A stretch of DNA of 64,000 nucleotides from a virus. The translations under genes and the position numbers were made by a program. The stretch is from positions 1 to 64,000 of the IMG/VR virus record IMGVR_UViG_3300045988_166613. One strand, written 5' to 3'. Positions 1,902 to 43,775 of the stretch are shown here, in pieces (positions within the stretch are counted from its first letter, which is position 1; each line of letters begins with the position of its first letter). The notes below the pieces were generated by a model, which searched no databases, was not told the DNA's origin, and worked only from the letters and a program-made list of their open reading frames with translations.

Positions 1902-3044
1902 TTAGAATTCCTCCTTTGTATTTATTTTATTTAATAGCATATCTTCTATATTGCTTTCAAAATAAGGTATTTCCAACAAATTTATATTATGAGTTTTACA
2001 ATAAGTTCTTTTAAAGCTATCGTTTTCTTTTTGTTTATTAAATTGCTCAATTCCACCAAAAATTTCAACTGGCTTATAATGTTGAACTCCTTGATACTCA
2101 ATGCATAAATTATAATCTTCTAAATAAAAATCAAATGGTAAAGGTTTACTTTTTCTACAATCATTAAATCTAAATTCTCTTTTATATTTTATTTTATGTC
2201 TATCTAGAATATTTTTTATAGTTTCTTCACCAATAGATTTTGTACATAATCCACAACCGTGTCCTTCTAATAAGTGACTTGCACGAATAGAAAAAATACT
2301 ATTACATTTGTTACAATATACTTTGATATGATCCCTACCTTTAATGTAATTAGATATAACTTTATATTTATCACCATGTATTTTATTTACTTTCTCTATA
2401 AATTCATCATGTGAATATCTAATTTTAGATAATTGTTTTTCTTTAGAACAATAAATGCAAGGATGTGATTTTGATATCATTCCACCCCAACTTTTATATT
2501 GAATACCCTCATCTCTATGTTTATTACATATAAAAGGTAATTTCTCTTCATTGTTGATGTATTTATTAGCTAAAATTTGAATATTATAATCTTTTAAAGC
2601 TTTTTCAATTATATCTTTAATCTTATTACATCTACTTTCCCTAAATGAAATTTTCTCACATTCTGGACAAAGAATTGAGCCATTTTTTATAACATTCCAG
2701 CTTCTTTGAAAAAATATATTATGTATCAAACACTCCCATTGCATTTTATATGTAGCATTTTGAGGATTTTTAGTTATTAACTTTAAAGGAATATTGTTCA
2801 ATTTTAAATAATTATTAATATTATTGTAAGTATAAATATTATGTTGAAAAAATATTGCAGGTTTAGTTTTTCTTCTATATAAAGTTGATAAATTTTGAAT
2901 ATTAAGAAAATACAAATATCCATTTTTATCTTGAAATGAAATCTTGTCAGATGTACTATATGTTTTAATCTTTGAAATATTATCTATACATTTTAATTCC
3001 AAATAATCTAAAAATTTATTTAACCTATCCATATTTAAAGCCAT
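1902..3044 (-). CDS. Zn-ribbon-repeat nuclease with PD-(D/E)XK/Vsr-like C-terminal domain (free-standing homing-endonuclease-like)
   Basis: Repeated Cys pairs (CPECEK, CIYCSKE, CNKCNS...CGLC) followed by PFDFYLEDYNLCIEYQGVQHY. Paralogous to 26884-28890 and 62980->64000. Confidence 0.6.
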   Translation of the reverse strand: MALNMDRLNKFLDYLELKCIDNISKIKTYSTSDKISFQDKNGYLYFLNIQNLSTLYRRKTKPAIFFQHNIYTYNNINNYLKLNNIPLKLITKNPQNATYKMQWECLIHNIFFQRSWNVIKNGSILCPECEKISFRESRCNKIKDIIEKALKDYNIQILANKYINNEEKLPFICNKHRDEGIQYKSWGGMISKSHPCIYCSKEKQLSKIRYSHDEFIEKVNKIHGDKYKVISNYIKGRDHIKVYCNKCNSIFSIRASHLLEGHGCGLCTKSIGEETIKNILDRHKIKYKREFRFNDCRKSKPLPFDFYLEDYNLCIEYQGVQHYKPVEIFGGIEQFNKQKENDSFKRTYCKTHNINLLEIPYFESNIEDMLLNKINTKEEF

Positions 3045-3080
3045 TAATCATCGCTTCCTTTCTAATAGTTTTTATATAAA

Positions 3081-3111
3081 TAAAAAAGAACCAAGAAATT
3101 AATCTTGATTC
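3081..3111 (-). terminator. rho-independent terminator after recombinase gene
   Basis: Minus sense: GAATCAAGA-TTAATT-TCTTGGTTC followed by TTTTTT. Confidence 0.6.
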
Positions 3112-3133
3112 TTCAATAATTTTCAAATTTATT

Positions 3134-4423
3134 TTATTTTGATAATGGACTATCATTCACTATCTTTCTTAATTCTACATCATCTACATGAGTATATATT
3201 TGAGTTGTAGATATATTTTCATGTCCTAATATCTCTTGGATAAATCTTATATCTACCCCTTCTTTTAAATACATTGTAGCTGCACTATGTCTAAGTTTGT
3301 GAGGAGTATATTTTTTATCTTTAAATCCTGCGTTCTCTATGTGTTTTTTTACTAAATCTTCAACCGCTCTTGCTGTTATCTGTGTTTTTCTTTTTGATAA
3401 AAATAAATATTCATTGTAATTATTTAATTCTTTTCTATCTTTTAAATAATTATTAATTGCTTTTATACATTCTTCATTTAGATAAACTGTTCTCTCTTTA
3501 TCTCCCTTACCTATAATAGTTATAGTATCTTCTTTTATATCCTTTAATTTTATATTACATAATTCAGATAATCTCATTCCACAATTTAAAAATAGTACAA
3601 ATATACAATAATCTCTACTATAATATTTCTTTCCTTTATTCATAGATTCTAAAACTTTTTTACTTTGATCTAAGGTTAAATAAACTGGAAGTCTTTTCTT
3701 TATTTTTGGAGTTTCCAATTCTATTGTAGGGTTTTCATCTATTACTTTCATTTTTACATTTAAAAACTTAAAGAAAGATTTTAAAGTAGCAACCTTTCTA
3801 GCTTTTGCATAAGCACTATTCTTTCTGTCTATTTCTACATAATTTAAAAAATCATATAAATCAGATAATGTTATATTTCTTATAAAATTATCATCAACAT
3901 ATCTTATGTCAACATTATCATAATTCTCCTCAACATCTTGATTTCTTCCAACTAGATACTTAAATAACAATGTTAAGTCATATGTATAATTTTTTATAGT
4001 ATTAGGACTTTGTTCTTTGATATTTTTTAAATAAGATACAAAATCATCAACTCTTTTAGGTAGTTTGTTTTCCTCTATTTTTTTAATTTCAACTTTTTTA
4101 TTCAACTCTAATTGTATGTTTGAATTATCGTTCAAATTCATTTTTTCATCAGAATTGAAGCTATCTAATTTTAATTCTTCAACCCACATTTGGATAATTC
4201 TTTTATTTTTTTTGTATATGTTCGCTATTTCATCTACAGACATGTTCATTTTATTGTAAAAAATATAAATATGTTCTATGTAATTTTCATAATCTCTAGC
4301 AACTCCTAAACTATCATAATTATTATATATATCATTTAAATTATCCATATCTTTACTATTAAATATATTATTTGAAATTATTTCATTAACATTTTGTTCA
4401 TATATCACCTTAAAACACCTCAT
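3134..4423 (-). CDS. tyrosine recombinase, XerC/XerD-like (integrase or resolvase) with N-terminal HTH extension
   Basis: Canonical boxes GMRLSEL, HKLRHSAATMYL and LGHENISTTQIYTHV. RBS AGAGGT upstream of the ATG. Confidence 0.85.
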   Translation of the reverse strand: MRCFKVIYEQNVNEIISNNIFNSKDMDNLNDIYNNYDSLGVARDYENYIEHIYIFYNKMNMSVDEIANIYKKNKRIIQMWVEELKLDSFNSDEKMNLNDNSNIQLELNKKVEIKKIEENKLPKRVDDFVSYLKNIKEQSPNTIKNYTYDLTLLFKYLVGRNQDVEENYDNVDIRYVDDNFIRNITLSDLYDFLNYVEIDRKNSAYAKARKVATLKSFFKFLNVKMKVIDENPTIELETPKIKKRLPVYLTLDQSKKVLESMNKGKKYYSRDYCIFVLFLNCGMRLSELCNIKLKDIKEDTITIIGKGDKERTVYLNEECIKAINNYLKDRKELNNYNEYLFLSKRKTQITARAVEDLVKKHIENAGFKDKKYTPHKLRHSAATMYLKEGVDIRFIQEILGHENISTTQIYTHVDDVELRKIVNDSPLSK

Positions 4424-18294: not shown

Positions 18295-21200
18295 TTAATA
18301 ACTATTAAGCTGTTCATTAATCTCATTAATAATTCTTCTATCTCTTTCATCTAGCATAGATTTGATATCCTCTGTTGTACCATTATTTACTGAACCAACA
18401 TTTAAATGTGTGTTGATGTTGATATTAGCTTTTTTACTACCTTGAGGTATTGCCATAAAAGAAGCAACCTTTGGAATAGCTTGTACAACATTATTACCAC
18501 TGTTATATCTAATATTAGAACTTGAAACGCCTAGATTATTATTAATAGATGTTAATTCACCATATAGTTTCTTAGTTAACTCAAGGTTATCTATGTATTC
18601 TTGCATTTTAAGACTACTATCTGCAAATACTTCTCCATTCTTCTTATAATAATCATTTAAAGCATCTCTAAGTTTTATAACGTGACCTTCTATTTCAATA
18701 AATCCTTTTTGAATCATACCTTTTGCTAATTCTGCTATTTTTTCATCAGTATAAGTTTTTTCCATTTCTTTAATTTTCTCATCCTTATGTTTATCTAATT
18801 TGTCCATTTGTTCATCAAAAGCTTTATTACCTTGATCTTTTTGTCTATCTCTAATGAAGTTATTTAATTCTTTTTCAAGGTCATCTTTTTGCTTTAACAA
18901 ATCTTTAAGTTTAGATTGTCCTTCAGATGAAATATCTCTTCTAACAGAATCTATTTGAGCATTAAGTTTATTTAACTTATCTTGCTTTTCTTTAAGGTTT
19001 TTCTCAAAGTTTTCATCGTCATATTTCTTGTTGTACTCATCTCTTTGTTTCTTTAATTCTTCTTTTATTTTAGAAGTTTCATCTTCTAAAGCTTTTTTAC
19101 GTTCTTCTACTTGATTTTTAACAACATTAGTCATTTCTCTTTCGGTATCACCCATTAACTTAACTTGTTTTTCAGAAACTTCTTTAATAGTTTTGGTTAG
19201 TGCATACCATTCATTATTAAGTTTAGGTAATTCTTTAGAAGTTATTTCAAAGTATTTATCAGCTTTTTCTTTTAAATCTTTGAAATTCTTAATTGCTTGT
19301 TCTTTAGCTTTATTGGAATTATCCATAGCGTTAACTTCATCTTCTATTTGTTTCAATCTATCATAGTAGTTAAATATATTACCATTAGAAGCATTAAAGC
19401 CATTGCTTTTTAAGACACCTTCTAAATATCTACCTTCATTTTGTTTAGCAGCTATTAAATTATTTATGGCATCTTTCTTTTGTTTATAAAGATTTATTTC
19501 TTTATTCATATATTGAAGCTTATTAACACCTTGAGCATTTTCTTCAAGAGTTTTGGTAATTTCTAATTCATTGTTAACATCATCTATAGCATCTGTAAGA
19601 GATTTGTAAGCATCGATTTTGTCTTCGATATCTTTGATATCTACATGTTCGCCATTTTTAGAACCTTTACCTCCATGTCCTTTACTACCACTGCCTTTGT
19701 GTCCATTAGCTTCTGGTGAATAGTCAACCTGTACTGGATTATTTGAAGGCAATATTGGATCAATACTATGTTCACTCCAAGCAGTCCATTGTACTCCATT
19801 CCATTTCCATTCTGCTCCTGGTGCTAATGGAACGTGTGGTTTTTGAGGTTTAAGACTATTAGGTAAACCATTTTCATCATAGCCTAATCCAACTGAAGCC
19901 ATAACTTCCTGAAGTTTTTTAGCAAGTTCATAGGCTGATAAAGCCTTAGTTTTACATGCGTTATCAAAATTCTTAACATCGGTTTTGTATGCTCCAGCCA
20001 TATTACCGACCATTTGACTATTAGCTCCTTGTATGGCGTTGGCACCATCTACTGCTGCTTTACTTTTGCTTGTAACTAAATTGGTGTGATTAGTATTATC
20101 AGTTTTGTAGTGTTCGGCTTTGTTGTTTGTTTCTTGTGAAGAAGCTTCGGTTCTAGCGGTTGCTCCATTTTGACCATTAGCTACCTTTGTGTTTTCACTA
20201 TCTGCATGAGCGTTAGTATCATTGGCATAGTTATTCATTTTAGCTTGTGTTTCTTGATTTGATAAACCAACACTATGATTCATAGCTTGTGTTTCAATTG
20301 CTTCTTTACTTGATAAATCACTTATCCCTTGTTGTAATAGATTTTGTGAATTTTGTATTGCTTGTCTATATGTAGCATCACTTTCAGTTCTTAATGTTTT
20401 TTCTAAAGCAATACTATTCTCCATGAATTTATTTTTATCAGCCAAAAGTGATATAACTCTAGTATCCCCAGAATTTAACATAGAACCTACTGTTTTTGCT
20501 GATAACGTTCCCGTTTTTTGGAATTCTGACATGGCTGATTGTACTAAGCCAATATTTCCAGTAAGTTTATTGAATTTTGAACCTAATTTATCTAATTCAT
20601 CTGCTGCTGATGTCGCACTTTCTTTAATTGCATCAAGTGGGTTAGTTAATCCTTCTAATGATGGTTTAGTGTTATCAGCGGTAGTTTGAGTTTGTTGAAG
20701 TGAATTATCAAATTCTCTAATTTTTTCAAAAACATCAACTCCACCAAACTGTGCTTTAATTTCAATATCTGACATTTTAGAAGCTTTCATATCAGCTACA
20801 GCTTGTTTAATACTTGTTATCGTTGCTAATTGTTCTTGAAGTTCTTTATTAACTTCTTGTGTATCAGCTTTTTTAATAGCGCTATTATGCCCAGTGCCCA
20901 TTAAAAGTAGTTTTTGAAACTTACTTAAACCAGTAGAATTAGACGAAGACATTTTTTGATAATTATTCTTATTTTCAAAATATTTATCAAAAACATCCAT
21001 GTGTTTACTGTTTTCTTGTGCTATTTTTTTAGCTGACTCTTCTCTTTCCTCTTTCTTTAATCTTATACTTTCTTCAATAAGAGCATTATTATTAGCAATC
21101 GCATTATTTTGAGAATCTAATCCATTTTTAGTTTGAGGCAATAGAGTTACCATCTCTGATTGAAGTTTATTTAATTCGGATTGCAATTCTATTTTTTCTT

Positions 21201-22272
21201 GTTCATTTTTTGTATTTGCTAACTGATTTTGTAATTCTTTTATTTTTGAGTATTTTTCTTCTGCTTTACTAATTGTTTCATTAGCTTGTTTTGAAGAATT
21301 AAAAAAGTCTGCATTTAATTGTTTTAACTCTTCTCTTGTTGTGTGAAGTTTATCGATAAAAGTCACTAATTTTTCAATTGCAAATGAAACAACCAGTCCA
21401 ACTCCAAACGAAATAGCTGCTTGAGCTGCTGTAGCTGCAACCCTTAATAATCCAAGTTCTACTTTTGTTGCAATTATACTCCCCTTTACTTTCCCCAAAT
21501 TAACTCCATAGGAAAGAGTAGCCTTATTTAGTCCTAACTGCGCATTTTTTGTTAATTTTATTTCTTTGATTAATTCTCTTTGTTCTTTTATCTTATTGTT
21601 TAATCCATATTGTTTACTAATAAATAATTCTTCAATTTTCCCAATGCCAAATAAATTTTTATCTATAGCCATTTTTCTAAATTGCGTATTTAAGGTTGTC
21701 ATACTGGCACTAGCCAATGATACAACGCTTGGAATCGCGCCAAATTCTTTAATTAATCCTCTTAAAGCACTAACTCCGCTATCTATCCCACTTATTATGC
21801 CTTTTAAAAAATCAGTATCAGATAAATCTAAAAATAACCCTTTTATATCTTCTTTTAAACTATTAATTTTAGCTGATAAAGAATTCATATAAGCTTCTTG
21901 TTCTTGTGCAGCACTTCCGAAGCTATTATCTGCTGTTTTTTTTATATTTTCTAAATCCTTTTTTGCATTTAACATCAAAGAGAAGAAAACGTTTGCATTT
22001 TGCTTCCCAGCAAATTTTTCGGCAATCATGGATTTTTGCATATTATTAAGATCATCCCAAACCATAGATAAATCTTTAATAACATCATATGTACTTCTAA
22101 ATTCTTCTTTACCCTCTTTAGTGACTTGGGTTAATTTAACACTTCCATGAGTTGTTTCATCTAACATTTTCTTTAATTTAGGAAATGTTTCTCCGCCTTT
22201 TTCTTTCATACCTCTCATGTTCATTGAGATTGTTTTTAATGCATTACCAACTTTAGCAGGCAGTATATTATC
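18295..22272 (-). CDS. tail tape measure protein, exon 2
   Basis: The frame stays open upstream of the annotated Met back to the intron 3' G (DNILPAKVGNALKTISMNMRG...). Long coiled-coil protein. Confidence 0.7.
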   Translation of the reverse strand, partial: DNILPAKVGNALKTISMNMRGMKEKGGETFPKLKKMLDETTHGSVKLTQVTKEGKEEFRSTYDVIKDLSMVWDDLNNMQKSMIAEKFAGKQNANVFFSLMLNAKKDLENIKKTADNSFGSAAQEQEAYMNSLSAKINSLKEDIKGLFLDLSDTDFLKGIISGIDSGVSALRGLIKEFGAIPSVVSLASASMTTLNTQFRKMAIDKNLFGIGKIEELFISKQYGLNNKIKEQRELIKEIKLTKNAQLGLNKATLSYGVNLGKVKGSIIATKVELGLLRVAATAAQAAISFGVGLVVSFAIEKLVTFIDKLHTTREELKQLNADFFNSSKQANETISKAEEKYSKIKELQNQLANTKNEQEKIELQSELNKLQSEMVTLLPQTKNGLDSQNNAIANNNALIEESIRLKKEEREESAKKIAQENSKHMDVFDKYFENKNNYQKMSSSNSTGLSKFQKLLLMGTGHNSAIKKADTQEVNKELQEQLATITSIKQAVADMKASKMSDIEIKAQFGGVDVFEKIREFDNSLQQTQTTADNTKPSLEGLTNPLDAIKESATSAADELDKLGSKFNKLTGNIGLVQSAMSEFQKTGTLSAKTVGSMLNSGDTRVISLLADKNKFMENSIALEKTLRTESDATYRQAIQNSQNLLQQGISDLSSKEAIETQAMNHSVGLSNQETQAKMNNYANDTNAHADSENTKVANGQNGATARTEASSQETNNKAEHYKTDNTNHTNLVTSKSKAAVDGANAIQGANSQMVGNMAGAYKTDVKNFDNACKTKALSAYELAKKLQEVMASVGLGYDENGLPNSLKPQKPHVPLAPGAEWKWNGVQWTAWSEHSIDPILPSNNPVQVDYSPEANGHKGSGSKGHGGKGSKNGEHVDIKDIEDKIDAYKSLTDAIDDVNNELEITKTLEENAQGVNKLQYMNKEINLYKQKKDAINNLIAAKQNEGRYLEGVLKSNGFNASNGNIFNYYDRLKQIEDEVNAMDNSNKAKEQAIKNFKDLKEKADKYFEITSKELPKLNNEWYALTKTIKEVSEKQVKLMGDTEREMTNVVKNQVEERKKALEDETSKIKEELKKQRDEYNKKYDDENFEKNLKEKQDKLNKLNAQIDSVRRDISSEGQSKLKDLLKQKDDLEKELNNFIRDRQKDQGNKAFDEQMDKLDKHKDEKIKEMEKTYTDEKIAELAKGMIQKGFIEIEGHVIKLRDALNDYYKKNGEVFADSSLKMQEYIDNLELTKKLYGELTSINNNLGVSSSNIRYNSGNNVVQAIPKVASFMAIPQGSKKANININTHLNVGSVNNGTTEDIKSMLDERDRRIINEINEQLNSY

Positions 22273-22628
22273 CTAAAGGCTTTTTATCCTCTAGTTCTAG
22301 GAGTTTCCTCCATTACATCATGTTGATTCATGATTAGCTTAGCATATATTTTCACCCTCGTTTAACGTTAGGCTAATTTAAACAATTAGGATATATCTTT
22401 AATATATCGTGGAGAACACTCTTGGAAAGATTATATTCTGTTATATTACATAACAGTTTCACCTTCTATGCGTTACAGTACAGTAGAATTTTACTTCTAT
22501 TGATTATGTCTCCATAATCTAGTTTTAAAACCTGTTACCTCGGTATTATCATATCTTTGTAGACTTAGATTTCACCGATTTTGCTCTCTTATAATATTAA
22601 GTATTTTCTACTTAACACGACCTTATTT
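22273..22628 (-). mobile_element. ORF-less group I-type intron in the tape measure gene (junctions within about 4 nt)
   Basis: Stops in all frames and GC-richer than the flanks. Ends in G. Shares a 52-nt block (one mismatch) and three further blocks with the TerL intron. Confidence 0.6.
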
Positions 22629-24272
22629 ATATTGATCTTGTATAGCTGAGTTGGCTGTTGTGATTAAAGCAATACTTTGACTTAAATCATTATTGGCTGT
22701 TGAGAGGGCGGATCCCCCTCGCATGATGGCAGAATTTAATCCGCCTACAGAAACGCTAAAATGATTACTGACGTTATTTAATTTATCAATAATATCCATA
22801 CTATCTTTAGCTTGGATATTGTATGCTTTCATTGTTGCAATTAAACCTTTGTTCGCACTCTCAGAATCAATATCACCGACATTAGAAAAAATTATAGAGT
22901 TTTGAGCTAGTTCTTTTGATTCTTGATAGCTATATGACATCTGTGCGAATGCAGCAGTTGCTTCAATTACATTTTTAGTTTGATTTCCCAATGCTTTTGC
23001 CATATCATTTGCTTGATTTTCAAAAGCCTCATATTCTTGAGAGACTTCATTTGTAACTTTTTTCAAGTCTCTCATTGAGTTATCAACTTCTACGATTGTA
23101 CTAAAACCTTCTTTTAAAACTCCAATGGAAGCTCCGATAATTGATCCTCCAATGAAATAATCCTTCATACGTGCAAATATATTACTAAATTGACTTGTTG
23201 TTACAAGTTCACGACTTTGTACTTTTAAATCATTAACATTTTTTTGTATTCTATTTCTCTCTACAGAGCCTAATATTTCATTCTGAGCTATTAACTGTTT
23301 ATATAGATTAATTTGTCTTTCGAGTTCATTGCTAATTCTTACTTGTTCACTACTTTTACCACCACGATTATCAACTCTCACCTTTAAATTCTCCAGTGTT
23401 CTTAATTGTGATGTTAAGAATCTAGCACTTCTATTAATTTCTGCACTTCTACTAGATTCTTTCTTTATACAAGCGTCTAACTTAACTAATTCTTGAGACA
23501 GTAAATTCTTTTCCTCTTGAGTTAACCTATTACTCTTAGCTTTAGCTTCATTAATTTTATTTTGAATGTTTTGTACAGATTCTAAATGTCCTGTATTATT
23601 ATAATTACTATTTTTAAGATGTTGAGTTTCACTTAATGCTTTTATTTTATTAAGTCTATTCTCTAATTGAATTAAAAATTGTTCTTGGCTTAAATTAGCC
23701 GACTCTAACTTTGATTTATTATTAACTATCTTTTTATCTACTAAATCAAATACACGAACTAACTCGCCTTCAACCTCTTTTACAGTCCATCCATATTTTT
23801 CTACAGCTTGTCTACCTTCATCATATTGATAAGTTAAAGTAGTGTTCTTAACATTACCTTTCTTATCCATTACAGTAGATAACTTTGCCATCTTACCATT
23901 TAATAATTGTATCTCATTTTCAAGACTTTTACTTTTCTTTAGTATATCTTCAAAGTCTCCAGAAACGCTTTTTAAATCACTCTTAACTTCAAGATTTATC
24001 TTTTCACCTTTGAGTGCTGAGTTAATTTGTTTTTGAATATCTTGTAAAGCTCCATTATTACCTAAACTAATTTTACTTATGTTTAAATCAATATTTTTGC
24101 TAAGTTGATTTATTTGTTTTTGTATTTGATTTGTAGCTTTATCAATATCTTTTAAAGATACTTTTTCTAATTCAACCCCTAAATTTTTACTTAAACTTTT
24201 AATATCTTTTTCAAGTTGTTGTAATACTTTATCTTTATTTAATTTCCCACCGAATGATAGATTTAAAGACAT
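22629..24272 (-). CDS. tail tape measure protein, exon 1
   Basis: About 548 codons of coiled coil ending ...NSAIQDQY(K). GGAAAGGAGG RBS. Confidence 0.7.
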
Positions 24273-24670: not shown

Positions 24671-25381
24671 TTAATTATTATTTGTCAACATTTTTATATA
24701 TAATTTTAAAAATAAATCTTCGACTTTTTTCATATTATCATCATCTAATACAAATTTTGATAATGGTTCTTTTGAATTTTTAGGCTCGTATATTCTCATC
24801 TTGCTTATGGTTCTAATTTGCGAAACTATAGCAACCGAACCTTTGTTTAAATTTTTTAATTCATTAAGTAAAAAAGCCTTATTTTTTTCTAAATTGGAAA
24901 ACTCTAAAGAAGTTGTATCAGTACATTCTAAATCACGATCAATTTTTTGAAGTTCTTTTTTGGTATAATCTATTTTATCTGTTAATAAAGCTTCACCTAA
25001 ATAAACTTCAAATCTTTTATTAATAGTTTCTTCATTTTCATAATCTTTTAATGAACGTATAGGAATTATTGTCACAACATTAGAATTTTTATTATTCTTG
25101 TTATCCATTACTAACCCATAATGTAATCCACCTTGTTCAGAACTAATATTATACCCTAAATGCACTTTTACTATATTTCCTTTTTTATACCTTATTAGTT
25201 CTTTAGGATTAAATTCTTGTTCTTTTGACAAAAAACGCTCATTCCAATCATTGAGCCAATAAGTTAATATTTTTTGTTGTTTGACACTTAAATTTTCAAC
25301 AATATTATATTCTAATTCATCTAATACTTGTCTCAAAGTTTGCCTTATTTCTTCATCAGTGTTTAAATGTTTTATTCTCAA
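24671..25381 (-). CDS. long MazF/PemK-like (SH3-fold toxin-like) protein
   Basis: KKGNIVKVHLGYNISSEQGGLHYGLVMDN...VVTIIPIRS and ...AIVSQIRTISKMRI match PemK/MazF signature segments. It has about 65 aa of N-terminal extension and a central insertion. TTG start after GGAGGA. Confidence 0.5.
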   Translation of the reverse strand: MRIKHLNTDEEIRQTLRQVLDELEYNIVENLSVKQQKILTYWLNDWNERFLSKEQEFNPKELIRYKKGNIVKVHLGYNISSEQGGLHYGLVMDNKNNKNSNVVTIIPIRSLKDYENEETINKRFEVYLGEALLTDKIDYTKKELQKIDRDLECTDTTSLEFSNLEKNKAFLLNELKNLNKGSVAIVSQIRTISKMRIYEPKNSKEPLSKFVLDDDNMKKVEDLFLKLYIKMLTNNN

Positions 25382-26883: not shown

Positions 26884-28890
26884 TTATTTATTTTCTAATT
26901 TTTTAAGTTTCTCATCAATATTATATTTAATACGTTCTTCCGGTGTTAAATCTTCTACATATTTAAAAGTAAAACCTTTATGGTGTTTTTGTTTACCATT
27001 GCAAACATTAGATATACAAGCTGGTTGCAAAAATACATTAAATATTCTCTTACTATCTCGGCTTAAAGCATTACATCCTTCAAAAATTTGTCCGTTCTCT
27101 ATTGATAGTATTTTTTTCATTTTTGCTTTGCTACTTTTATCCTTTCCTATTTTTTTACTAATAGAAATATCGTAGTTACACCAACCAAGCCTTGTTCCTT
27201 GTTTTAAATACTTCACAATTGTATTTCTATTAATTTTTGTAATATTTTTTATTTCAAGAACATCTTTGGTTCGTGTATTATACATATAACAAATTTCTCT
27301 CGCTATATTTTTTATAGAACCTTTGTGACATGTTGTCCAATTTACATTACTTAAATCAAATAATTCAGCTAATTCTGAGTTTAATATACTGTTCTGAATC
27401 CATTCTAAATTTGATTCTCTGCAATCAAGCTCTATATAATGCTTTATATCATTTTTTAATGCTACTTCTTTTTTATACTTATCGTTAGCTTGTTCTTGTT
27501 TTAAATCTCTTCCTCCCGTAGACGAAAAATTAGATATATCTGAATAATGTTGTTTACCATTAACTTCTATTATCATATTAAACTTAGGGATATAAAAATC
27601 GTATCTTTTTGGTTTTATCCAACTTGGGGAATATTCTTTTTTGTATTTAATATTTAATTGTAATAATAGATTTATTATAAATTTCTCTGGATATGATAAA
27701 CCATCAGAGCAATATTTACAAACAAATCCTCTTCTTGTTAGATCACATATTTTTCTTTTTCTAATTTTATTGCAATCTGGGCATATTGTTTCTACCCTCT
27801 TGTTACTTCCCTGAGAATGCTTATAAGCATCTTCTTTATTAACAAAATACTTAACTAAATATGGATGTGTTGTTGCTATATCGTTTATACCAACTCTAAC
27901 TCTTTTACCAAAACAAATTGGACAATTACCATTTCTTAATATAACAGATGGCGTAGTTTCAAATTCGCAAAAATTACAATTTGAACTATTATGTCTTAAT
28001 AGAATTTTTTTATCAGCTCCTTCATATTTACTAAGTACATTAAATTCATTCGGATATAAAGTTTGTAATTCTGTTTCAAAAGTTTCTTGTTTTTTTATAA
28101 ATTTATTTTTAAGGAATAATTTGTTACAATGAGGACAAGAAGCTTTCTTTAATATTGTTGAAACTCCTATATAAAAAGATTTGCCACACTTATTATGTCT
28201 AATTAGCACCTTAGTTTTAGCATTAATATATTCCCCTAAAATTTCATATTCATTACCATATTTCTCTTTAATTTCATTAACAAATTCTTCGTGTGTTTTT
28301 TGTTGGTTGCCTGCACATAATGGACACCCAGCACCATGTAAAAGTGAAGCAGGTTTAACACTCCATTCATAGCCACATTTATTATGCCTTAGTTTAATTT
28401 TAATATCACCTTTTATATATGGTTCTAATGGTGTATATTCTTCACTATATTTTTCTTTTAATTCTCTTAAAAATTGCTCATTATTTTTAGTTATAGAATT
28501 AATGGCTTTTATTTTGTTACAAGATGGACATCCCCTTTTTATAAGTTGATTATAATATATATAAAATTCATTATTACATTTTTTATGTTTTATTTTTATT
28601 TTGCTTTTGCAACTTTCATATTCACTCAAAACAATATATTCATTTCCATATTTATCATAAAGTTCTTTTTTAATGTCTTTAGTCGTCTTTTTAATGTTCC
28701 CTGCACACTTCGGACACCCATTGTTTAACAAGCTATATGGAATCACACTCCATTCATATCCACAATCATTATGTTTAACTAGTATTTTAGTTTTATTGTT
28801 AATATATTTTTCTAACGGTATATAAACTCCATCCCCATGTACTTCGTTTAATTGTTTAATAAATTCCTCATGTGTCTTCTTTTTACCCAT
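26884..28890 (-). CDS. Zn-ribbon-repeat nuclease with PD-(D/E)XK/Vsr-like core and C-terminal DNA-binding module (homing-endonuclease-like)
   Basis: At least five repeats of the type C.YEW...P..LL.G.GCP.C, then RYDFYIPKFNMIIEVNGKQHY, then IENGQIFEG..ALSRD... Start ATG 28890 (MGKKKTHEEF) matches the paralogue at 62980. Confidence 0.65.
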   Translation of the reverse strand: MGKKKTHEEFIKQLNEVHGDGVYIPLEKYINNKTKILVKHNDCGYEWSVIPYSLLNNGCPKCAGNIKKTTKDIKKELYDKYGNEYIVLSEYESCKSKIKIKHKKCNNEFYIYYNQLIKRGCPSCNKIKAINSITKNNEQFLRELKEKYSEEYTPLEPYIKGDIKIKLRHNKCGYEWSVKPASLLHGAGCPLCAGNQQKTHEEFVNEIKEKYGNEYEILGEYINAKTKVLIRHNKCGKSFYIGVSTILKKASCPHCNKLFLKNKFIKKQETFETELQTLYPNEFNVLSKYEGADKKILLRHNSSNCNFCEFETTPSVILRNGNCPICFGKRVRVGINDIATTHPYLVKYFVNKEDAYKHSQGSNKRVETICPDCNKIRKRKICDLTRRGFVCKYCSDGLSYPEKFIINLLLQLNIKYKKEYSPSWIKPKRYDFYIPKFNMIIEVNGKQHYSDISNFSSTGGRDLKQEQANDKYKKEVALKNDIKHYIELDCRESNLEWIQNSILNSELAELFDLSNVNWTTCHKGSIKNIAREICYMYNTRTKDVLEIKNITKINRNTIVKYLKQGTRLGWCNYDISISKKIGKDKSSKAKMKKILSIENGQIFEGCNALSRDSKRIFNVFLQPACISNVCNGKQKHHKGFTFKYVEDLTPEERIKYNIDEKLKKLENK

Positions 28891-29186
28891 TACATTCTCA
28901 CCATCCACTCATTTATAAGCTCATCCTCAAACTCATCTCTAACCTTATGTCTTATCATAATTCCATCATTAACTTTTGCTATTGTTATGTATTCTTTCTC
29001 CGCTTCAGCATCTTCCATAATCCCTGACAGTAAACATCTAAAATCATATCCATTCATATGTTGTTTCAGATAAACTGATTCATTATCATAAACAAATCTC
29101 TCTAGGTTAAGTTCTTTATTTTTAGTCTTACTGAAAAATTCCTCTGGATCTATAAATATTTCATCGTAAATTTTAAAATTAATCAT
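28890..29186 (-). CDS. hypothetical protein
   Basis: 98 aa with GAGGTGA RBS. Its stop overlaps the next start (TAATG). Confidence 0.55.
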   Translation of the reverse strand: MINFKIYDEIFIDPEEFFSKTKNKELNLERFVYDNESVYLKQHMNGYDFRCLLSGIMEDAEAEKEYITIAKVNDGIMIRHKVRDEFEDELINEWMVRM

Positions 29187-40247: not shown

Positions 40248-41768
40248 CTACTTTTTATTATTATCATCTCTAACTCTAGTTGTTTCTCCAGCATCTGTTA
40301 AATCTCCAGTATCTTTCCTTGGTCTCCCCTTATCTTCATTACCATTTTGAGTATGTGAAGAATTAAGAGGTTTCCATGTTTCATGAGTTTTAAGTATCTC
40401 ATTTTCTAAGAAATTTAATCCCATTATAGTTGCTGGTTGTAAACCTAAAGAAGCTGTATATAAAGTTTTACATGGTGCTGACATTTGAGAACCTTGTAAA
40501 TATCTATCTTGAACTTCTTTTTCATTAAAAGTAGTTATATCTAATAATTGTATGTATATCTTACCGCCATATAATTTATTAAATTTTCTATTTAACCATG
40601 TTTCAAATTGTCTATATAAAGAAAAACATTTACCTAAGTTATATTTTGTAGAGTATTCTAATGCACTTCCTGTAGCATCTACCCCAAATAATGCGGGTGC
40701 AAAAGCACTTGAACTAAATAATAATTTCTCAGCTTTTAAAATTTCATCTTCTTTAGCGACTCCCTGTGTTTGGAATTTTACTTCTTCCGCATCCATCGGA
40801 GTTGTTACTGCTGCAACACTATCTGGTAATTGTTCATTTAATAATTCCATATATGTTTGAATCATATTTAAAGATAAAAGAAAATCATCTGGTTTCTCAC
40901 CTTTCTTATTTAAAGGTATCTTAAATACGAGCATTTTTAATAAATCTGCTTTAACCTTATCTTTATTTAATCCTTTATAATCTTTTAAGTTATATAAATC
41001 ATCAAACAAACTTACATATGGAGGTAAACAATAATCCAATTCATCATTAAACCATTTTACACATATACTTTTATAAGGATCTAATTCTTGCCATTGATAA
41101 TCTGCATTATATCCGCTATTTTTATATATTACATATTTATTAGTAAATTCTTTTGGATAAGATGTTTTTAATAAATCTTCTCTACCCATAAAATAACTAA
41201 AATCAAATGCAAAATTTAAACAACTATCAAACGAAGTTATCTTGCAATATTTAGGATTTAAAGCTTTGATAAAATAATTCTTTGTACTTTCTACTTCATA
41301 TCCGTAAAAAATATCATATTTACTCATTTGTAAAGTTGCTTTTAAAAATTCTTCTTCTATATTCATTTTTAATAGTTTATTACTTGCTTTTATGTATGCT
41401 TTTTTAACATCATCAACCTTAAATTCTTTACCATCTTTATTAGGTATTGGTATTATTACTGACCTAAATAAACACATTCTAGGTATAGCTTCTACTAAAT
41501 TTTGATATTGAGGGCTTGTACCCATTAAATTTTGAGATATATCTCTTAATTCTTGTTGATAACTTTTTGGATTGTTAATCATTTGATTTATTTGTTGAGG
41601 TGTATATTCTCCAGCAAGATTTAAATTATACATCACTTCATTTTGTATCGTTTGTCCAAAAGGATATAATTTTCTAGTAAAATTTAATATTTCCCTAGCT
41701 TTATCTTCCGTAGATTTATTATCAAAAGCATCTTTTTTATAATCTTTTTTCTTACCTATTTTTCTCAC
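40248..41768 (-). CDS. portal protein
   Basis: 506 aa, directly downstream of TerL (GTGA overlap). Size and position are typical. The start codon is uncertain. Confidence 0.65.
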   Translation of the reverse strand: MRKIGKKKDYKKDAFDNKSTEDKAREILNFTRKLYPFGQTIQNEVMYNLNLAGEYTPQQINQMINNPKSYQQELRDISQNLMGTSPQYQNLVEAIPRMCLFRSVIIPIPNKDGKEFKVDDVKKAYIKASNKLLKMNIEEEFLKATLQMSKYDIFYGYEVESTKNYFIKALNPKYCKITSFDSCLNFAFDFSYFMGREDLLKTSYPKEFTNKYVIYKNSGYNADYQWQELDPYKSICVKWFNDELDYCLPPYVSLFDDLYNLKDYKGLNKDKVKADLLKMLVFKIPLNKKGEKPDDFLLSLNMIQTYMELLNEQLPDSVAAVTTPMDAEEVKFQTQGVAKEDEILKAEKLLFSSSAFAPALFGVDATGSALEYSTKYNLGKCFSLYRQFETWLNRKFNKLYGGKIYIQLLDITTFNEKEVQDRYLQGSQMSAPCKTLYTASLGLQPATIMGLNFLENEILKTHETWKPLNSSHTQNGNEDKGRPRKDTGDLTDAGETTRVRDDNNKK

Positions 41769-42952
41769 CTCCCAAACTTTTGTGTTTTAAAGAAGAATAA
41801 ATCTTCCGCTTTTATCTCTGACTCTTCTTGTTTTGGTTTATCTTCGTATGTTTTTATATAATATAATAAATATGCTACCGCTGAATATCTATCTTTATCC
41901 ATTGTCTTAGTGTTTCTTTCTACGGTTAATTTTCCCCCATTCAATGTTTTTAATGAAAGATTCGCAACTTCTTCTATGAAAAAGTCTGTTTGTATAGAAG
42001 GTAAAAAGCTATTCATCATGTAATCTTGATTACTTAAATCAACTTTTGCTTGGTCTACCTTATCTAATAATTGCAACTTACCACTTTCAACCATATTCAT
42101 AAAATTAACTATAACATCAGTATTAATACCCTGAGCATTTACCCCAAATACACATTTTCTTGCATCTGCCTCATCGCTTTCGTGATCTGTATTTATAGTA
42201 TCGTAAGCTTCTAATTCTTCACCTGTAATTGGATCTATATGAACTTTCATTAATTCATCTAATAAGCCTATACCTAAACCATTAATATCTATAGCAATCA
42301 TAATCGCATTAAACGCTTTTCTTAATCTCTTAACAGCAATAGCTTGTCCGGTAAAGTTCATTCCATTTGGAAGGTTAATCATATTAACTAACTTAACATT
42401 TCTAACCCTTTCATTTTTATCTCTTTTTACTTTTCCTATAACTATAGAAGTTTGGTTATTGCTTGTTTTAGCTGAACGAGCTACATCGACAGCCATATAA
42501 TACTCTGATTTTCCATCACCTTTTAATTCTGCTTTTGGTAAAACTCTTAGTTCCAATAGTTTATTTACATCTACTATACAGTTTTCATTTGAACCTACCC
42601 ATCTACTTTCATAGTTGGTTGCAAAGAAAATAGGTGATAATCTTTCTTTTTTTGCTAATATTTGAGTTTTTGTCTCGCCTCTACCATATTCACAAGCTAA
42701 TTGCCAATCTGAACCTATAACAATTTTCCCTTTTAAGTCTGCCATATCATCTAGCATTCTTAAACTTCTTTCATATTCAGTATTTTTAAAATATGCTGTT
42801 GTCAAGAAATGCATTTGACCATTCATTTCTTCAGGATTAATTAAAGAACTACCTATAGTTCTTCTTGGTATATTAGGGATTGGTTCAAGTGCATCTTGGA
42901 ATAGTTCATCATTAAGTAGAGCTGCTTCTTCAATATTTACAATTTTGTTACC
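41765..42952 (-). CDS. terL: terminase large subunit, exon 2 (Walker B + nuclease domain)
   Basis: Begins GNKIVNIEEAALLNDE (Walker B-like hhhhEE), in frame right after the intron-terminal G. Confidence 0.7.
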   Translation of the reverse strand, partial: GNKIVNIEEAALLNDELFQDALEPIPNIPRRTIGSSLINPEEMNGQMHFLTTAYFKNTEYERSLRMLDDMADLKGKIVIGSDWQLACEYGRGETKTQILAKKERLSPIFFATNYESRWVGSNENCIVDVNKLLELRVLPKAELKGDGKSEYYMAVDVARSAKTSNNQTSIVIGKVKRDKNERVRNVKLVNMINLPNGMNFTGQAIAVKRLRKAFNAIMIAIDINGLGIGLLDELMKVHIDPITGEELEAYDTINTDHESDEADARKCVFGVNAQGINTDVIVNFMNMVESGKLQLLDKVDQAKVDLSNQDYMMNSFLPSIQTDFFIEEVANLSLKTLNGGKLTVERNTKTMDKDRYSAVAYLLYYIKTYEDKPKQEESEIKAEDLFFFKTQKFGR

Positions 42953-43202
42953 CATAAGGCTTTTTATCCTTATGTTCTTATAGTTTCCTATAAGTTCAGC
43001 GTACATTTTCATCTTCAACATTACTTGTTAAGATGGTGAACACTCTTGGAAGGATTATATTTATTCACCTTCTACGCGTTACGGTGGATTATAGCCTTTC
43101 GCAATCTATAATCTTACCTCGGTATTATCATATCTTTGCAGACTTAGATTTCACCGATTTTGCTCACTTATTATTCAATATATTTCTACATTGAACGGCT
43201 AA
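42953..43202 (-). mobile_element. ORF-less group I-type intron in the terminase large subunit gene (junctions within about 4 nt)
   Basis: Splits the TerL ATPase between Walker A and Walker B. GC-richer than the flanks. Ends in G. Paralogous to the TMP intron. Confidence 0.6.
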
Positions 43203-43775
43203 AATTAACCTATGTCTTCTTAATCCTTTACTTGATTGAGCATTTGCTAAATTGGTTATTACAGCTCCACTGGCAAAAGTAATCTCTACGGTATCTTTGG
43301 AGATATTAGCCTGCACTATTTCATTTTTTAATAAAGGGTAAAACTTTAATATTTCTCTATGTTTTTCATTAAATAATTTTGCACTAGCTTCACGAGTTTG
43401 TGCGGACATTGATAAGGTTATATCTGGGAATAACACTGCCGTTATGTACATTGCTAATAATTCAACGAAAGTTTTCCCATATCCTCTAGGAAATGTTCCA
43501 TATATAGATACAAATCTTATCATACATCTTAAAAACACTCTTTGATCTAAATCTAATCTAATTCCTCCTTCTTCTGGAGTTATTAAATCTAAAAAAAGGT
43601 CTGGAAACCATTTAGCCCAAACCATAAAATCACACCATTTATCAAGATTTTTTTCAAAAGTTCCTTGCTGCTTATTACTTTTTGCCGATACATTACTTTG
43701 AAAATTAGGGTTATATATATCCGTTCTGCTTTTAGAGTGCATATCATTTTGTCTAAAATTTTCTATTCCACTCAT
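43203..43775 (-). CDS. terL: terminase large subunit, exon 1 (Walker A)
   Basis: FPRGYGKTF Walker A, and ...AQSSKGLRRHRLI at the junction. The stop at 43164-43166 lies inside the conserved intron block. Confidence 0.7.

What the first reader, a model, noticed from the sequence alone, without database searches (positions are those of the whole stretch)
22273..22628. ORF-less intron interrupting the tail tape measure gene
The tape measure coding sequence is broken into 24272->~22629 and 22272->18295 by about 356 nt. This insert has stops in every frame and is visibly GC-richer than its surroundings.
- The downstream frame is open exactly back to the G that ends the insert (...GCCTTTAG|GATAATATACTGCCTGCTAAAGTTGGTAATGCATTAAAAACAATC...).
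- That adds DNILPAKVGNALKTIS, which looks like the conserved TMP core, ahead of the annotated Met.

Without splicing the phage would make a 548-aa fragment plus a start-less 1325-aa fragment. Tail length would then be undefined. To my knowledge, an intron in a tape measure gene is uncommon.
Basis: partly seen in the sequence, partly recalled or inferred. Interest (0 to 1): 0.8.

Follow-up and report, generated by a model that had tools for sequence, protein, structure and literature searches.

The report
Group I intron in tape-measure gene
The phage's tail tape measure gene is interrupted by a 374-base self-splicing (group I) RNA intron with no gene of its own; this is real, but such introns in tape measure genes have been described since 2008.

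Summary
The break in the tape measure (TMP) gene is real and is best explained by an ORF-less group I intron. An intron-less relative (L127, 93% aa identity) reads ...CAAGAT|CCTGCT..., which fixes the intron at window 22634..22261 (minus strand, 374 nt). Splicing would give ...AIQD|PAKVGNALKT... and an 1867-aa TMP, and it restores a complete PF10145 domain.

The insert starts after a U that can form a U.G wobble in P1, and it ends in G. It has P2-P9.1 with the P3/P7 pseudoknot. On a structure-blind alignment of 16 relatives, 97% of cells pair (31-44% in slid controls) and 21 of 39 pairs show compensatory changes.

Rfam does not call this copy. A 75%-identical shorter copy elsewhere in the window (42940-43216) matches RF00028 end to end (42.7 bits, E 1e-9).

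The family occurs in at least 119 viral contigs and in several other TMP genes. Longer members carry HNH endonuclease ORFs. The same intron at the same site is present in a Clostridium perfringens assembly and in a TMP only 51% identical.

The insert is not GC-richer than its gene. TMP group I introns were described in Bacillus cereus-group prophages in 2008. Verdict: a new member of a known kind. Splicing itself was not tested.

The parts
22635..24272 (-). TMP exon 1 (546 codons, ends ...GCT ATA CAA GAT = AIQD)
   Evidence: ORF list. PF10145 is truncated at profile position 125. The exon end is fixed by alignment to intron-less L127.
22261..22634 (-). Group I intron, 374 nt, ORF-less (starts CAAUAUAAAU..., ends ...AUAAUAUACUG)
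   Evidence: Empty-site homolog L127. Stops in all frames. Covariation-supported fold. MFE z-score -3.84.
18295..22260 (-). TMP exon 2 (1321 codons plus stop, begins CCT GCT AAA GTT GGT = PAKVG)
   Evidence: Exon 1 plus exon 2 gives an open 1867-aa frame.
22616..22640 (-). P1. Exon CAAGAU (22640-22635) plus intron C22634 pairs with the internal guide GGUCGUG (22622-22616). The U22635.G22621 wobble sits at the 5' splice site. Loop is AAUAUAAAUAA.
   Evidence: Read from the sequence. The same geometry is seen in L105, phiCD211 and c-st. The same exon and guide are present in L130.
22597..22615 (-). P2 hairpin UUAAGUA-GAAAA-UACUUAA
   Evidence: Compensatory change in phiCD211 (AAUUA/UAAUU).
22583..22588 (-). 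P3 5' strand GAGAGC (pairs with 22417-22412)
   Evidence: Helix 1: 5 of 6 pairs have changes on both sides, 96.9% paired.
22540..22578 (-). P4-P5-P5a. P4 is UCGGUG/UACCGA and P5 is AUC/GAU. The motif UCUAAG...UAUGA resembles the 11-nt GAAA-tetraloop receptor.
   Evidence: Helix 2. The only stretch of this copy that Rfam RF00028 aligns (22540-22578). The receptor resemblance is my reading of the sequence.
22474..22539 (-). J4/6, an enlarged and branched P6 (closing CAG/CUG, inner hairpins GAUUAUG-GAGA-CAUAAUC and UAGAA-GUAAA-UUCUA), and J6/7
   Evidence: Local fold. This region is much shorter in L130 and in the second window copy.
22467..22473 (-). P7 5' strand A[C]GCAUA with bulged C22472 (pairs with 22346-22341). 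Presumed guanosine-binding helix.
   Evidence: Helix 3: 100% paired, 2 pairs covary (A-U <-> G-C), with invariant G-C and C-G pairs next to the bulge.
22425..22466 (-). P7.1 (GAAGG/CUUUC) with inner hairpin P7.1a, lying between P7 and P3' as in subgroup IA introns
   Evidence: Helix 4: 4 of 5 pairs have changes on both sides.
22412..22417 (-). P3 3' strand GUUCUC (closes the P3/P7 pseudoknot)
22353..22411 (-). P8: CAC/GUG closing three hairpins (P8a GAUAUAU..AUAUAUC, P8b CUAAUU..AAUUAG, P8c CCUAACG..CGAGG)
   Evidence: (helix 5). P8a and P8b show compensatory changes in L130. P8c is shared with c-st, L051, L072 and L113.
22341..22352 (-). J8/7 (AAAAUA) and P7 3' strand UAUGCU
22297..22339 (-). 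P9.0 5' strand (AG), then P9 (CUA/UAG) with branches P9a and P9b. P9b is GGAG-GAAA-CUCC, with a GAAA tetraloop.
   Evidence: (helix 6). GGAA-GAAA-UUCC in L130 is compensatory.
22273..22294 (-). P9.1 hairpin CUAGAGG-AUAAAAAG-CCUUUAG, the family signature
   Evidence: Helix 7: 100% paired, 3 pairs covary. A pattern built on it found at least 119 viral contigs.
22261..22272 (-). 3' tail GAUAAUAUACUG. CU (22263-22262) is the P9.0 3' strand, and G22261 is the terminal (omega) G at the 3' splice site.
   Evidence: empty site. P9.0 association across 96 family members: 56 form both pairs, against 35.8 +/- 2.4 when shuffled.

Best explanation
Window 22634..22261 (minus strand) is a 374-nt ORF-less group I intron of subgroup-IA type. 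It sits inside the most conserved motif of the tape measure gene (...TANSAIQD | PAKVGNALKT...).

Inferred mechanism:
- The TMP gene is transcribed as one pre-mRNA and the intron folds.
- P1 presents the 5' splice site as a U.G wobble (U22635.G22621).
- An external guanosine bound in P7 attacks that site.
- The terminal G22261, positioned by P9.0, then replaces it.
- The freed exon-1 3'-OH attacks the 3' splice site and ligates CAAGAU to CCUGCU.
- Translation of the ligated mRNA gives a single 1867-aa TMP.

The intron has no homing endonuclease gene, so this copy is probably inherited passively or moved by recombination or by an endonuclease supplied in trans.

Shown: the exact insert boundaries, the fold, the covariation and the family relationships. 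Inferred: catalysis and splicing in vivo.
For: - Empty site. L127 (93% aa identity) is continuous...GCTATACAAGAT|CCTGCTAAAGTTGGT, so the insert is 374 nt with only a 1-nt (C) ambiguity. The U(-1) and terminal-G rule resolves that ambiguity.
- Protein continuity. Joining the ORFs restores PF10145 3-201/201, 65.1 against 45.8 bits. The exact splice gives an open 1867-aa frame. It aligns without a gap to Sundance TIQDPKIVGTALKT.
- Fold. P3, P4, P5, P7, P7.1, P8, P9 and P9.1 were mapped on a MAFFT (structure-blind) alignment of 16 family members. 97.3% of cells pair, against 31-44% with slid partners. 21 of 39 pairs change on both sides, and 0 of 500 shuffles reach any measure. All 39 pairs are standard in the window copy.
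- Thermodynamics. The MFE fold recovers P2-P5, P7.1, P8a-c, P9a/b and P9.1 on its own, z = -3.84.
- P9.0. The 2 nt before the first tail G pair with J7/9 in 56 of 96 members (shuffled 35.8 +/- 2.4, max 43). In the window this pairing is AG/CU.
- Sister copy. A second copy in the window is 75% identical (nhmmer E 3e-51). It matches Rfam RF00028 over model positions 1-253, 42.7 bits, E 1e-9.
- Same site elsewhere. The intron is nearly identical in a C. perfringens assembly (L132, and in L131). In L130, whose TMP is only 51% identical, it is diverged with compensatory changes in P7.1, P8a, P8b, P9a, P9b and P9.1.
- Mobility. Longer relatives carry HNH-endonuclease ORFs: phrog_374, E 5e-62 and 6e-82.
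Against: - No RNA or protein data exist, so splicing is not shown.
- Rfam gives only an 11.7-bit partial hit for this copy and nothing at the gathering threshold.
- P10 is at most 1 bp (3'-exon C with G22622).
- P1 has one A/G mismatch.
- No endonuclease gene is present, so current mobility is unexplained.
- The covariation set was chosen by sequence similarity and its members are related. The shuffle control is therefore not a probability, although the slid-partner control also separates cleanly.
Confidence: 0.9

Rival explanations
1. The insert is a decayed, no longer catalytic intron remnant. The TMP gene is then a pseudogene in a defective prophage, and no full-length TMP is made.
For: There is no homing endonuclease ORF. 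The peripheral insertions in P6, P7.1, P8 and P9 are large enough that Rfam misses the element. P10 is weak.
Against: All 39 tested core pairs are intact in this copy. Both exons remain open over 546 and 1321 codons. The same-site intron in a TMP that is 51% identical keeps its helices through compensatory changes, which implies selection on the RNA. Neighbouring structural genes are intact.
Confidence: 0.06
2. The TMP is genuinely made as two separate polypeptides (N-terminal 549 aa and C-terminal about 1309 aa from the internal ATG at 22224). The spacer is an intergenic element that does not splice.
For: Deposited annotations treat such halves as separate genes: c-st CST131/CST130 and the C. 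perfringens 'phage tail tape measure protein' fragments. An ATG-started ORF 22224->18295 exists.
Against: The break falls inside a single conserved domain that is continuous in 176 phage records and in the 93%-identical L127. The spacer has the full group I fold. The frame downstream is open well upstream of the ATG. I looked for no ribosome-binding site upstream of the internal ATG at 22224.
Confidence: 0.03
3. One reading: an intron spanning 22628..22273, giving IQDQY-DNILPAK or IQDQYKYNILPAK.
For: The frames stay open to those points.
Against: L127 lacks QY(K) and DNIL. G22273 is the closing base of the covarying P9.1 stem and is a C in c-st. The spliced product would carry 6-7 extra residues compared with Sundance and SPbeta.
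Confidence: 0.01

Closest known systems
Group I introns TMP-IVS1, -IVS2, -IVS3a/b in tape measure genes of Bacillus cereus-group prophages (Tourasse & Kolsto 2008, PMC2504315)
   Same: They are group I introns of subclass IA1/IA2 inserted in conserved parts of prophage TMP genes. There are several insertion sites per gene. At least TMP-IVS3b lacks a complete homing endonuclease gene. Related introns are adapted to different sites through P1.
   Different: The host lineage differs (Bacillus, not Clostridium). I could not compare sequences or exact sites because those sequences were not fetched. No claim of orthology is made.
Clostridioides phage phiCD211 / phiCDIF1296T TMP (NC_029048.2)
   Same: Its TMP is split in the same motif (VQNA | EKVGTALKT), within a codon of the window's site. 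A homologous insert (L003 about 2991-3278) shares P2, P3, P4-P5, P7, P7.1 and P9.1 with compensatory changes.
   Different: phiCD211 has a second, unrelated-looking intron about 30 nt downstream, which is the one annotated Intron_gpI. The homologous first intron is unannotated. It is also shorter (288 nt), lacking P8b/c and the P9 branches.
Clostridium botulinum phage c-st CST131/CST130 (NC_007581.1)
   Same: A split SPbeta-YomI-like TMP. The 390-nt spacer (L002 2748-3137) shares P7, P7.1, P8c, P9a/b and P9.1 with the window intron. P1 has a U.G wobble.
   Different: Its P3-P6 sequences are diverged and are not aligned by MAFFT. The record annotates it as two TMP genes, not as an intron.
Classical phage subgroup-IA group I introns (T4 td/nrdB, Twort orf142, SPO1 DNA polymerase) and the Azoarcus tRNA-Ile intron (from my own knowledge, not tested here)
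   Same: Shared features are U.G at the 5' splice site, a terminal G, the P3/P7 pseudoknot, an extra hairpin between P7 and P3' (IA type), and an L9 GAAA tetraloop with a CCUAAG/UAUGG-like receptor in P5.
   Different: Only one P7.1-type hairpin is evident, rather than P7.1 plus P7.2. A conserved P9.1 hairpin (loop AUAAAAAG) and a GAUAAC tail mark this family. RF00028 does not reach its gathering score on either window copy.

Membership tests
Group I intron (Rfam RF00028 / Michel-Westhof architecture) | The 5' splice site follows a U that forms a U.G wobble with the internal guide sequence in P1 | tested here: met
   Exon CAAGAU|C pairs with GGUCGUG, with U22635.G22621. The boundary is fixed independently by L127. 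The same geometry is seen in L105, phiCD211, c-st and L130.
Group I intron (Rfam RF00028 / Michel-Westhof architecture) | The intron ends in G (omega G) | tested here: met
   The last intron base is G22261 by the empty-site alignment. Family tails end ...UG before diverse exons. P9.0 pairing sits just upstream.
Group I intron (Rfam RF00028 / Michel-Westhof architecture) | Conserved core: P3-P8 and P4-P6 domains with the P3/P7 pseudoknot | tested here: met
   39 pairs in 7 helices, 97.3% paired, 21 pairs with compensatory change, slid controls 31-44%.
Group I intron (Rfam RF00028 / Michel-Westhof architecture) | Guanosine-binding P7 with a bulged nucleotide and conserved G-C pair, plus conserved J8/7 | tested here: inconclusive
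   The sequence features are present: bulge at C22472, invariant G-C and C-G pairs, and a conserved J8/7 (AAAAUA in the window; AAAAKR across the 16 aligned members). Binding and catalysis cannot be tested in silico.
Group I intron (Rfam RF00028 / Michel-Westhof architecture) | Scores at or above the RF00028 gathering threshold (50 bits) | tested here: not met
   The TMP copy gives 11.7 bits over P4-P5 only and no hit at the gathering threshold. The 75%-identical compact copy at 42977-43217 gives a full-length alignment of 42.7 bits, E 1e-9, still below 50. The shortfall is attributed to peripheral insertions.
Group I intron (Rfam RF00028 / Michel-Westhof architecture) | GTP-dependent self-splicing | not testable with these tools
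   Needs an in-vitro splicing assay or RT-PCR.
Subgroup IA (IA1/IA2) | Extra helices P7.1/P7.2 between P7 and P3' | tested here: inconclusive
   One covarying hairpin (P7.1, with P7.1a in some members) lies at that place. A separate P7.2 was not identified. No comparison with subgroup reference alignments was possible.
Mobile (homing) group I intron | An intron-encoded homing endonuclease | tested here: not met
   There are 10-17 stops per frame. Longer relatives do carry HNH endonuclease ORFs.
Mobile (homing) group I intron | Both intron-plus and intron-minus alleles of the same site exist in related genomes | tested here: met
   L127 is intron-minus. The window, L131/L132 and L130 are intron-plus at the identical site.

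The most novel reading that the evidence does not exclude
The window's two introns may belong to a large, so far uncurated clade of IA-type group I introns of Firmicutes phages. Its signature is the P9.1 hairpin GG-AUAAAAAG-CC plus a GAUAAC tail. RF00028 leaves both window copies below its gathering threshold. The clade has repeatedly colonised the conserved core of tape measure genes: at least 3 interruption points in C. perfringens TMPs and 4 other TMP sites in viral contigs. ORF-less copies such as this one might be mobilised in trans, for example by the free-standing HNH/I-HmuI-like endonuclease 2.6 kb upstream (26884-28908). If so, many TMP genes are systematically mis-annotated as two or three genes.
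Probability: 0.3. Interest if true: 0.45.

Novelty: new member of a known kind. Interest (0 to 1): 0.3.

Why it matters
- Annotation. The two 'tape measure' ORFs here, and their counterparts in C. perfringens assemblies, phage c-st and phiCD211, are one gene. Tail-length inference from TMP size needs the spliced 1867-aa product.
- Detection. The standard Rfam model leaves both copies of this intron family in the window below its gathering threshold, and peripheral insertions nearly hide the TMP copy.
- Biology. It adds a Clostridium example to the known habit of group I introns of sitting in the most conserved motif of phage structural genes. It does not change current understanding.

Tried and rejected
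- Rfam at gathering threshold over the whole window found only a tRNA. A permissive scan of the insert gave an 11.7-bit partial group I hit.
- Megablast of the 8-kb TMP region against phages found no match.
I used a structure-blind MAFFT alignment with the count of structure pairs, and an nhmmer profile, instead.
- The genome-contig scan for TMP relatives found none.
- Pfam found nothing in the ORFs of the longer relatives. PHROGs identified them as HNH endonucleases.
- Literature searches for phiCD211 plus intron, and for C. perfringens plus group I intron plus phage, found no description of this intron.
- Rejected junctions: IQDQY|DNIL, IQDQYKY|NIL and IQDQY|NIL, all contradicted by L127.
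- Rejected alternatives: an intein (stops in all frames), a group II intron or IStron (no such structure or IS genes), and frameshift or bypass (the 374-nt structured insert has an empty-site allele).
- c-st P3-P6 could not be aligned automatically. Its P3 (GAGUGG/CCACUC) was read by eye only.

Full report
**1. What is in the sequence**

On the minus strand there are two co-linear ORFs: 24272->22623 (549 aa) and a frame open from 22272 to 18295. The stretch between them has stops in every frame.

ORF1 carries the tape-measure domain PF10145, cut off at profile position 125 of 201. A conceptual joint restores positions 3-201 and raises the score from 45.8 to 65.1 bits. A junction-spanning query is matched in one uninterrupted piece by 176 phage records, including Brevibacillus phage Sundance and SPbeta YomI. 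So one gene is interrupted inside its most conserved motif.

The claim that the insert is GC-richer fails. It is 0.303 GC, against 0.291 and 0.301 in the exons.

**2. Exact boundaries**

A viral contig (L127, IMGVR_UViG_3300046021_000196) encodes the same TMP region at 93% amino-acid identity, without any interruption. Its DNA reads ...GCTATACAAGAT|CCTGCTAAAGTTGGT.... The window's exons align to it up to window 22634/22635 and again from 22260.

- The insert is therefore 374 nt, window 22634..22261.
- A one-base (C) ambiguity remains. The group I rule (U before the 5' splice site, G as the last intron base) resolves it.
- The spliced frame is open for 1867 codons and reads ...TANSAIQD|PAKVGNALKT.... 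It aligns without a gap to Sundance ...TIQDPKIVGTALKT....
'QYK' and 'DNIL' are read-through of intron sequence.

**3. What the insert is**

BLASTN of the insert found homologous spacers in other Clostridial phages, all in unannotated gaps:

- phiCD211/phiCDIF1296T, whose TMP is split and whose record annotates an Intron_gpI just downstream;
- c-st, whose TMP is annotated as CST131 and CST130;
- CB452P1 and phiCDKH02.

Each hit is followed by a short tail ending in G and then by unrelated exon sequence.

From these relatives I derived a fold and tested it on a MAFFT alignment made without structural information (16 sequences, A3). The fold comprises:

- P3 (GAGAGC/GUUCUC);
- P4 (UCGGUG/UACCGA);
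- P5;
- P7 (A[C]GCAUA/UAUGCU, with a bulged C);
- P7.1, lying between P7 and P3';
- P8, P9 and P9.1, with P3 and P7 forming the pseudoknot typical of group I.

Results of the test:

- 97.3% of 623 cells form standard pairs, against 31-44% when partners are slid by 1-3 columns.
- 21 of 39 pairs change on both sides.
- No shuffle out of 500 reaches any observed measure.
- The window copy has 39 of 39 standard pairs.
- An unconstrained MFE fold of the window intron recovers most of these helices, z = -3.84.

Other structural features:

- P1 pairs exon CAAGAU plus intron C1 with GGUCGUG and places U22635.G22621 at the splice site. L105, phiCD211 and c-st show the same design.
- The two bases before the terminal G (CU) can pair with AG after P7 (P9.0). 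Across 96 distinct family members this pairing forms in 56, against 35.8 +/- 2.4 after shuffling.
- L9b is a GAAA tetraloop, and P5 carries UCUAAG...UAUGA. By my own knowledge this resembles the 11-nt receptor.

**4. Why Rfam missed it, and the sister copy**

Rfam gives nothing at gathering threshold, and only 11.7 bits over P4-P5 for this copy. An nhmmer profile of the family found a second copy in the window at about 43216..42940, E 3e-51.

- It is 277 nt long and 75% identical to the TMP intron over aligned columns.
- It matches RF00028 over the whole model (1-253) with 42.7 bits, E 1e-9, still under the 50-bit cut-off.
- Compared with it, the TMP copy has insertions in P6, P7.1, P8 and P9. 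This accounts for the miss.

**5. Same site elsewhere**

Protein homologs of ORF1 include ones named as Clostridium perfringens 'phage tail tape measure protein' fragments, which points to that host.

- Some end ...AIQDQYK, exactly as here, or ...AIQDQYKQGRVK, reading further into the intron.
- A C. perfringens assembly (GCA_016071095.1, L132) and L131 carry an almost identical intron.
- L130, whose TMP is only 51% identical, carries a diverged intron at the identical exon junction (CAAGAT|...CTG|CCAGC). It has compensatory changes in P7.1, P8a, P8b, P9a, P9b and P9.1.
- Other homologs read through this site and stop at two other points.

Four further family members (L102, L113, L059, L122) splice conceptually to open frames with PF10145. 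Longer relatives hold ORFs that match HNH endonucleases, while the window copy is ORF-less.

**6. Mechanism (inferred)**

- The pre-mRNA folds.
- Exogenous guanosine bound in P7 attacks after U22635.
- G22261 then occupies the site.
- The exons are ligated, and an 1867-aa TMP is translated.

Without splicing, a 549-aa fragment would end at the TAA at 22625-22623. Nothing here tests catalysis.

**7. Comparison and novelty**

Group I introns in TMP genes were described at three sites in B. cereus-group prophages (IA1/IA2, at least one lacking a complete endonuclease gene) by Tourasse and Kolsto in 2008 (PMC2504315). The phiCD211 record annotates one as well. This is therefore a new member of a known kind.

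Modest new points:

- the exact splice sites;
- the Rfam blind spot;
- the second copy in the window;
- the evidence that TMP cores in Clostridial phages are repeatedly colonised.

Interest 0.3.

Noticed in passing
window 42940-43216 (minus strand): A second, compact (about 277 nt) ORF-less intron of the same family. It was found with nhmmer (E 3e-51) and matches RF00028 full-length at 42.7 bits (E 1e-9, below the 50-bit cut-off). It splits a phrog_15503 gene (ORFs 43775-43164 and 43021-41765) immediately upstream of the portal gene (40248-41768), so the host gene is probably the large terminase.
   Followed up: partly
window 26884-28908 (minus strand): A free-standing 674-aa ORF with HNH endonuclease (phrog_559, E 3e-88) and I-HmuI NUMOD-like matches, 2.6 kb upstream of the TMP gene. 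It could act in trans on intron-less alleles. This was not tested.
   Followed up: no
window 24671-25381 (minus strand): The ORF just upstream of the TMP has a PemK/MazF-like toxin domain (PF02452, E 2.6e-9).
   Followed up: no
window 49729-49795 (minus strand): A tRNA gene (Rfam RF00005, 53.6 bits).
   Followed up: no
L003 (phiCD211, NC_029048.2) 2991-3278 and 3302-3567: The phiCD211 TMP appears to hold two tandem introns separated by a mini-exon of about 30 nt (EKVGTALKTIG). Only the second is annotated (Intron_gpI). The first is the homolog of the window intron.
   Followed up: partly
L002 (phage c-st, NC_007581.1) 2748-3137: CST131 and CST130, annotated as N-terminal and middle TMP pieces, are separated by a 390-nt member of this intron family. 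The predicted splice is ...KTRESG|ETIGTSLKT....
   Followed up: partly
L004 (phiCDKH02) about 1933-3031; L001 (CB452P1) about 2180-3094: Family members with HNH endonuclease ORFs inside. In phiCDKH02 the intron interrupts an HK97 gp10-like gene, whose 3' exon is unannotated. In CB452P1 it splits the TMP (weak TMP_3 hit in the upstream ORF, E 5.7e-5).
   Followed up: partly
They read through the window's site but stop after ...VGNGL or after ...NQKVTII(K/E)I. This suggests at least two further interruption sites in these TMP genes.
   Followed up: no
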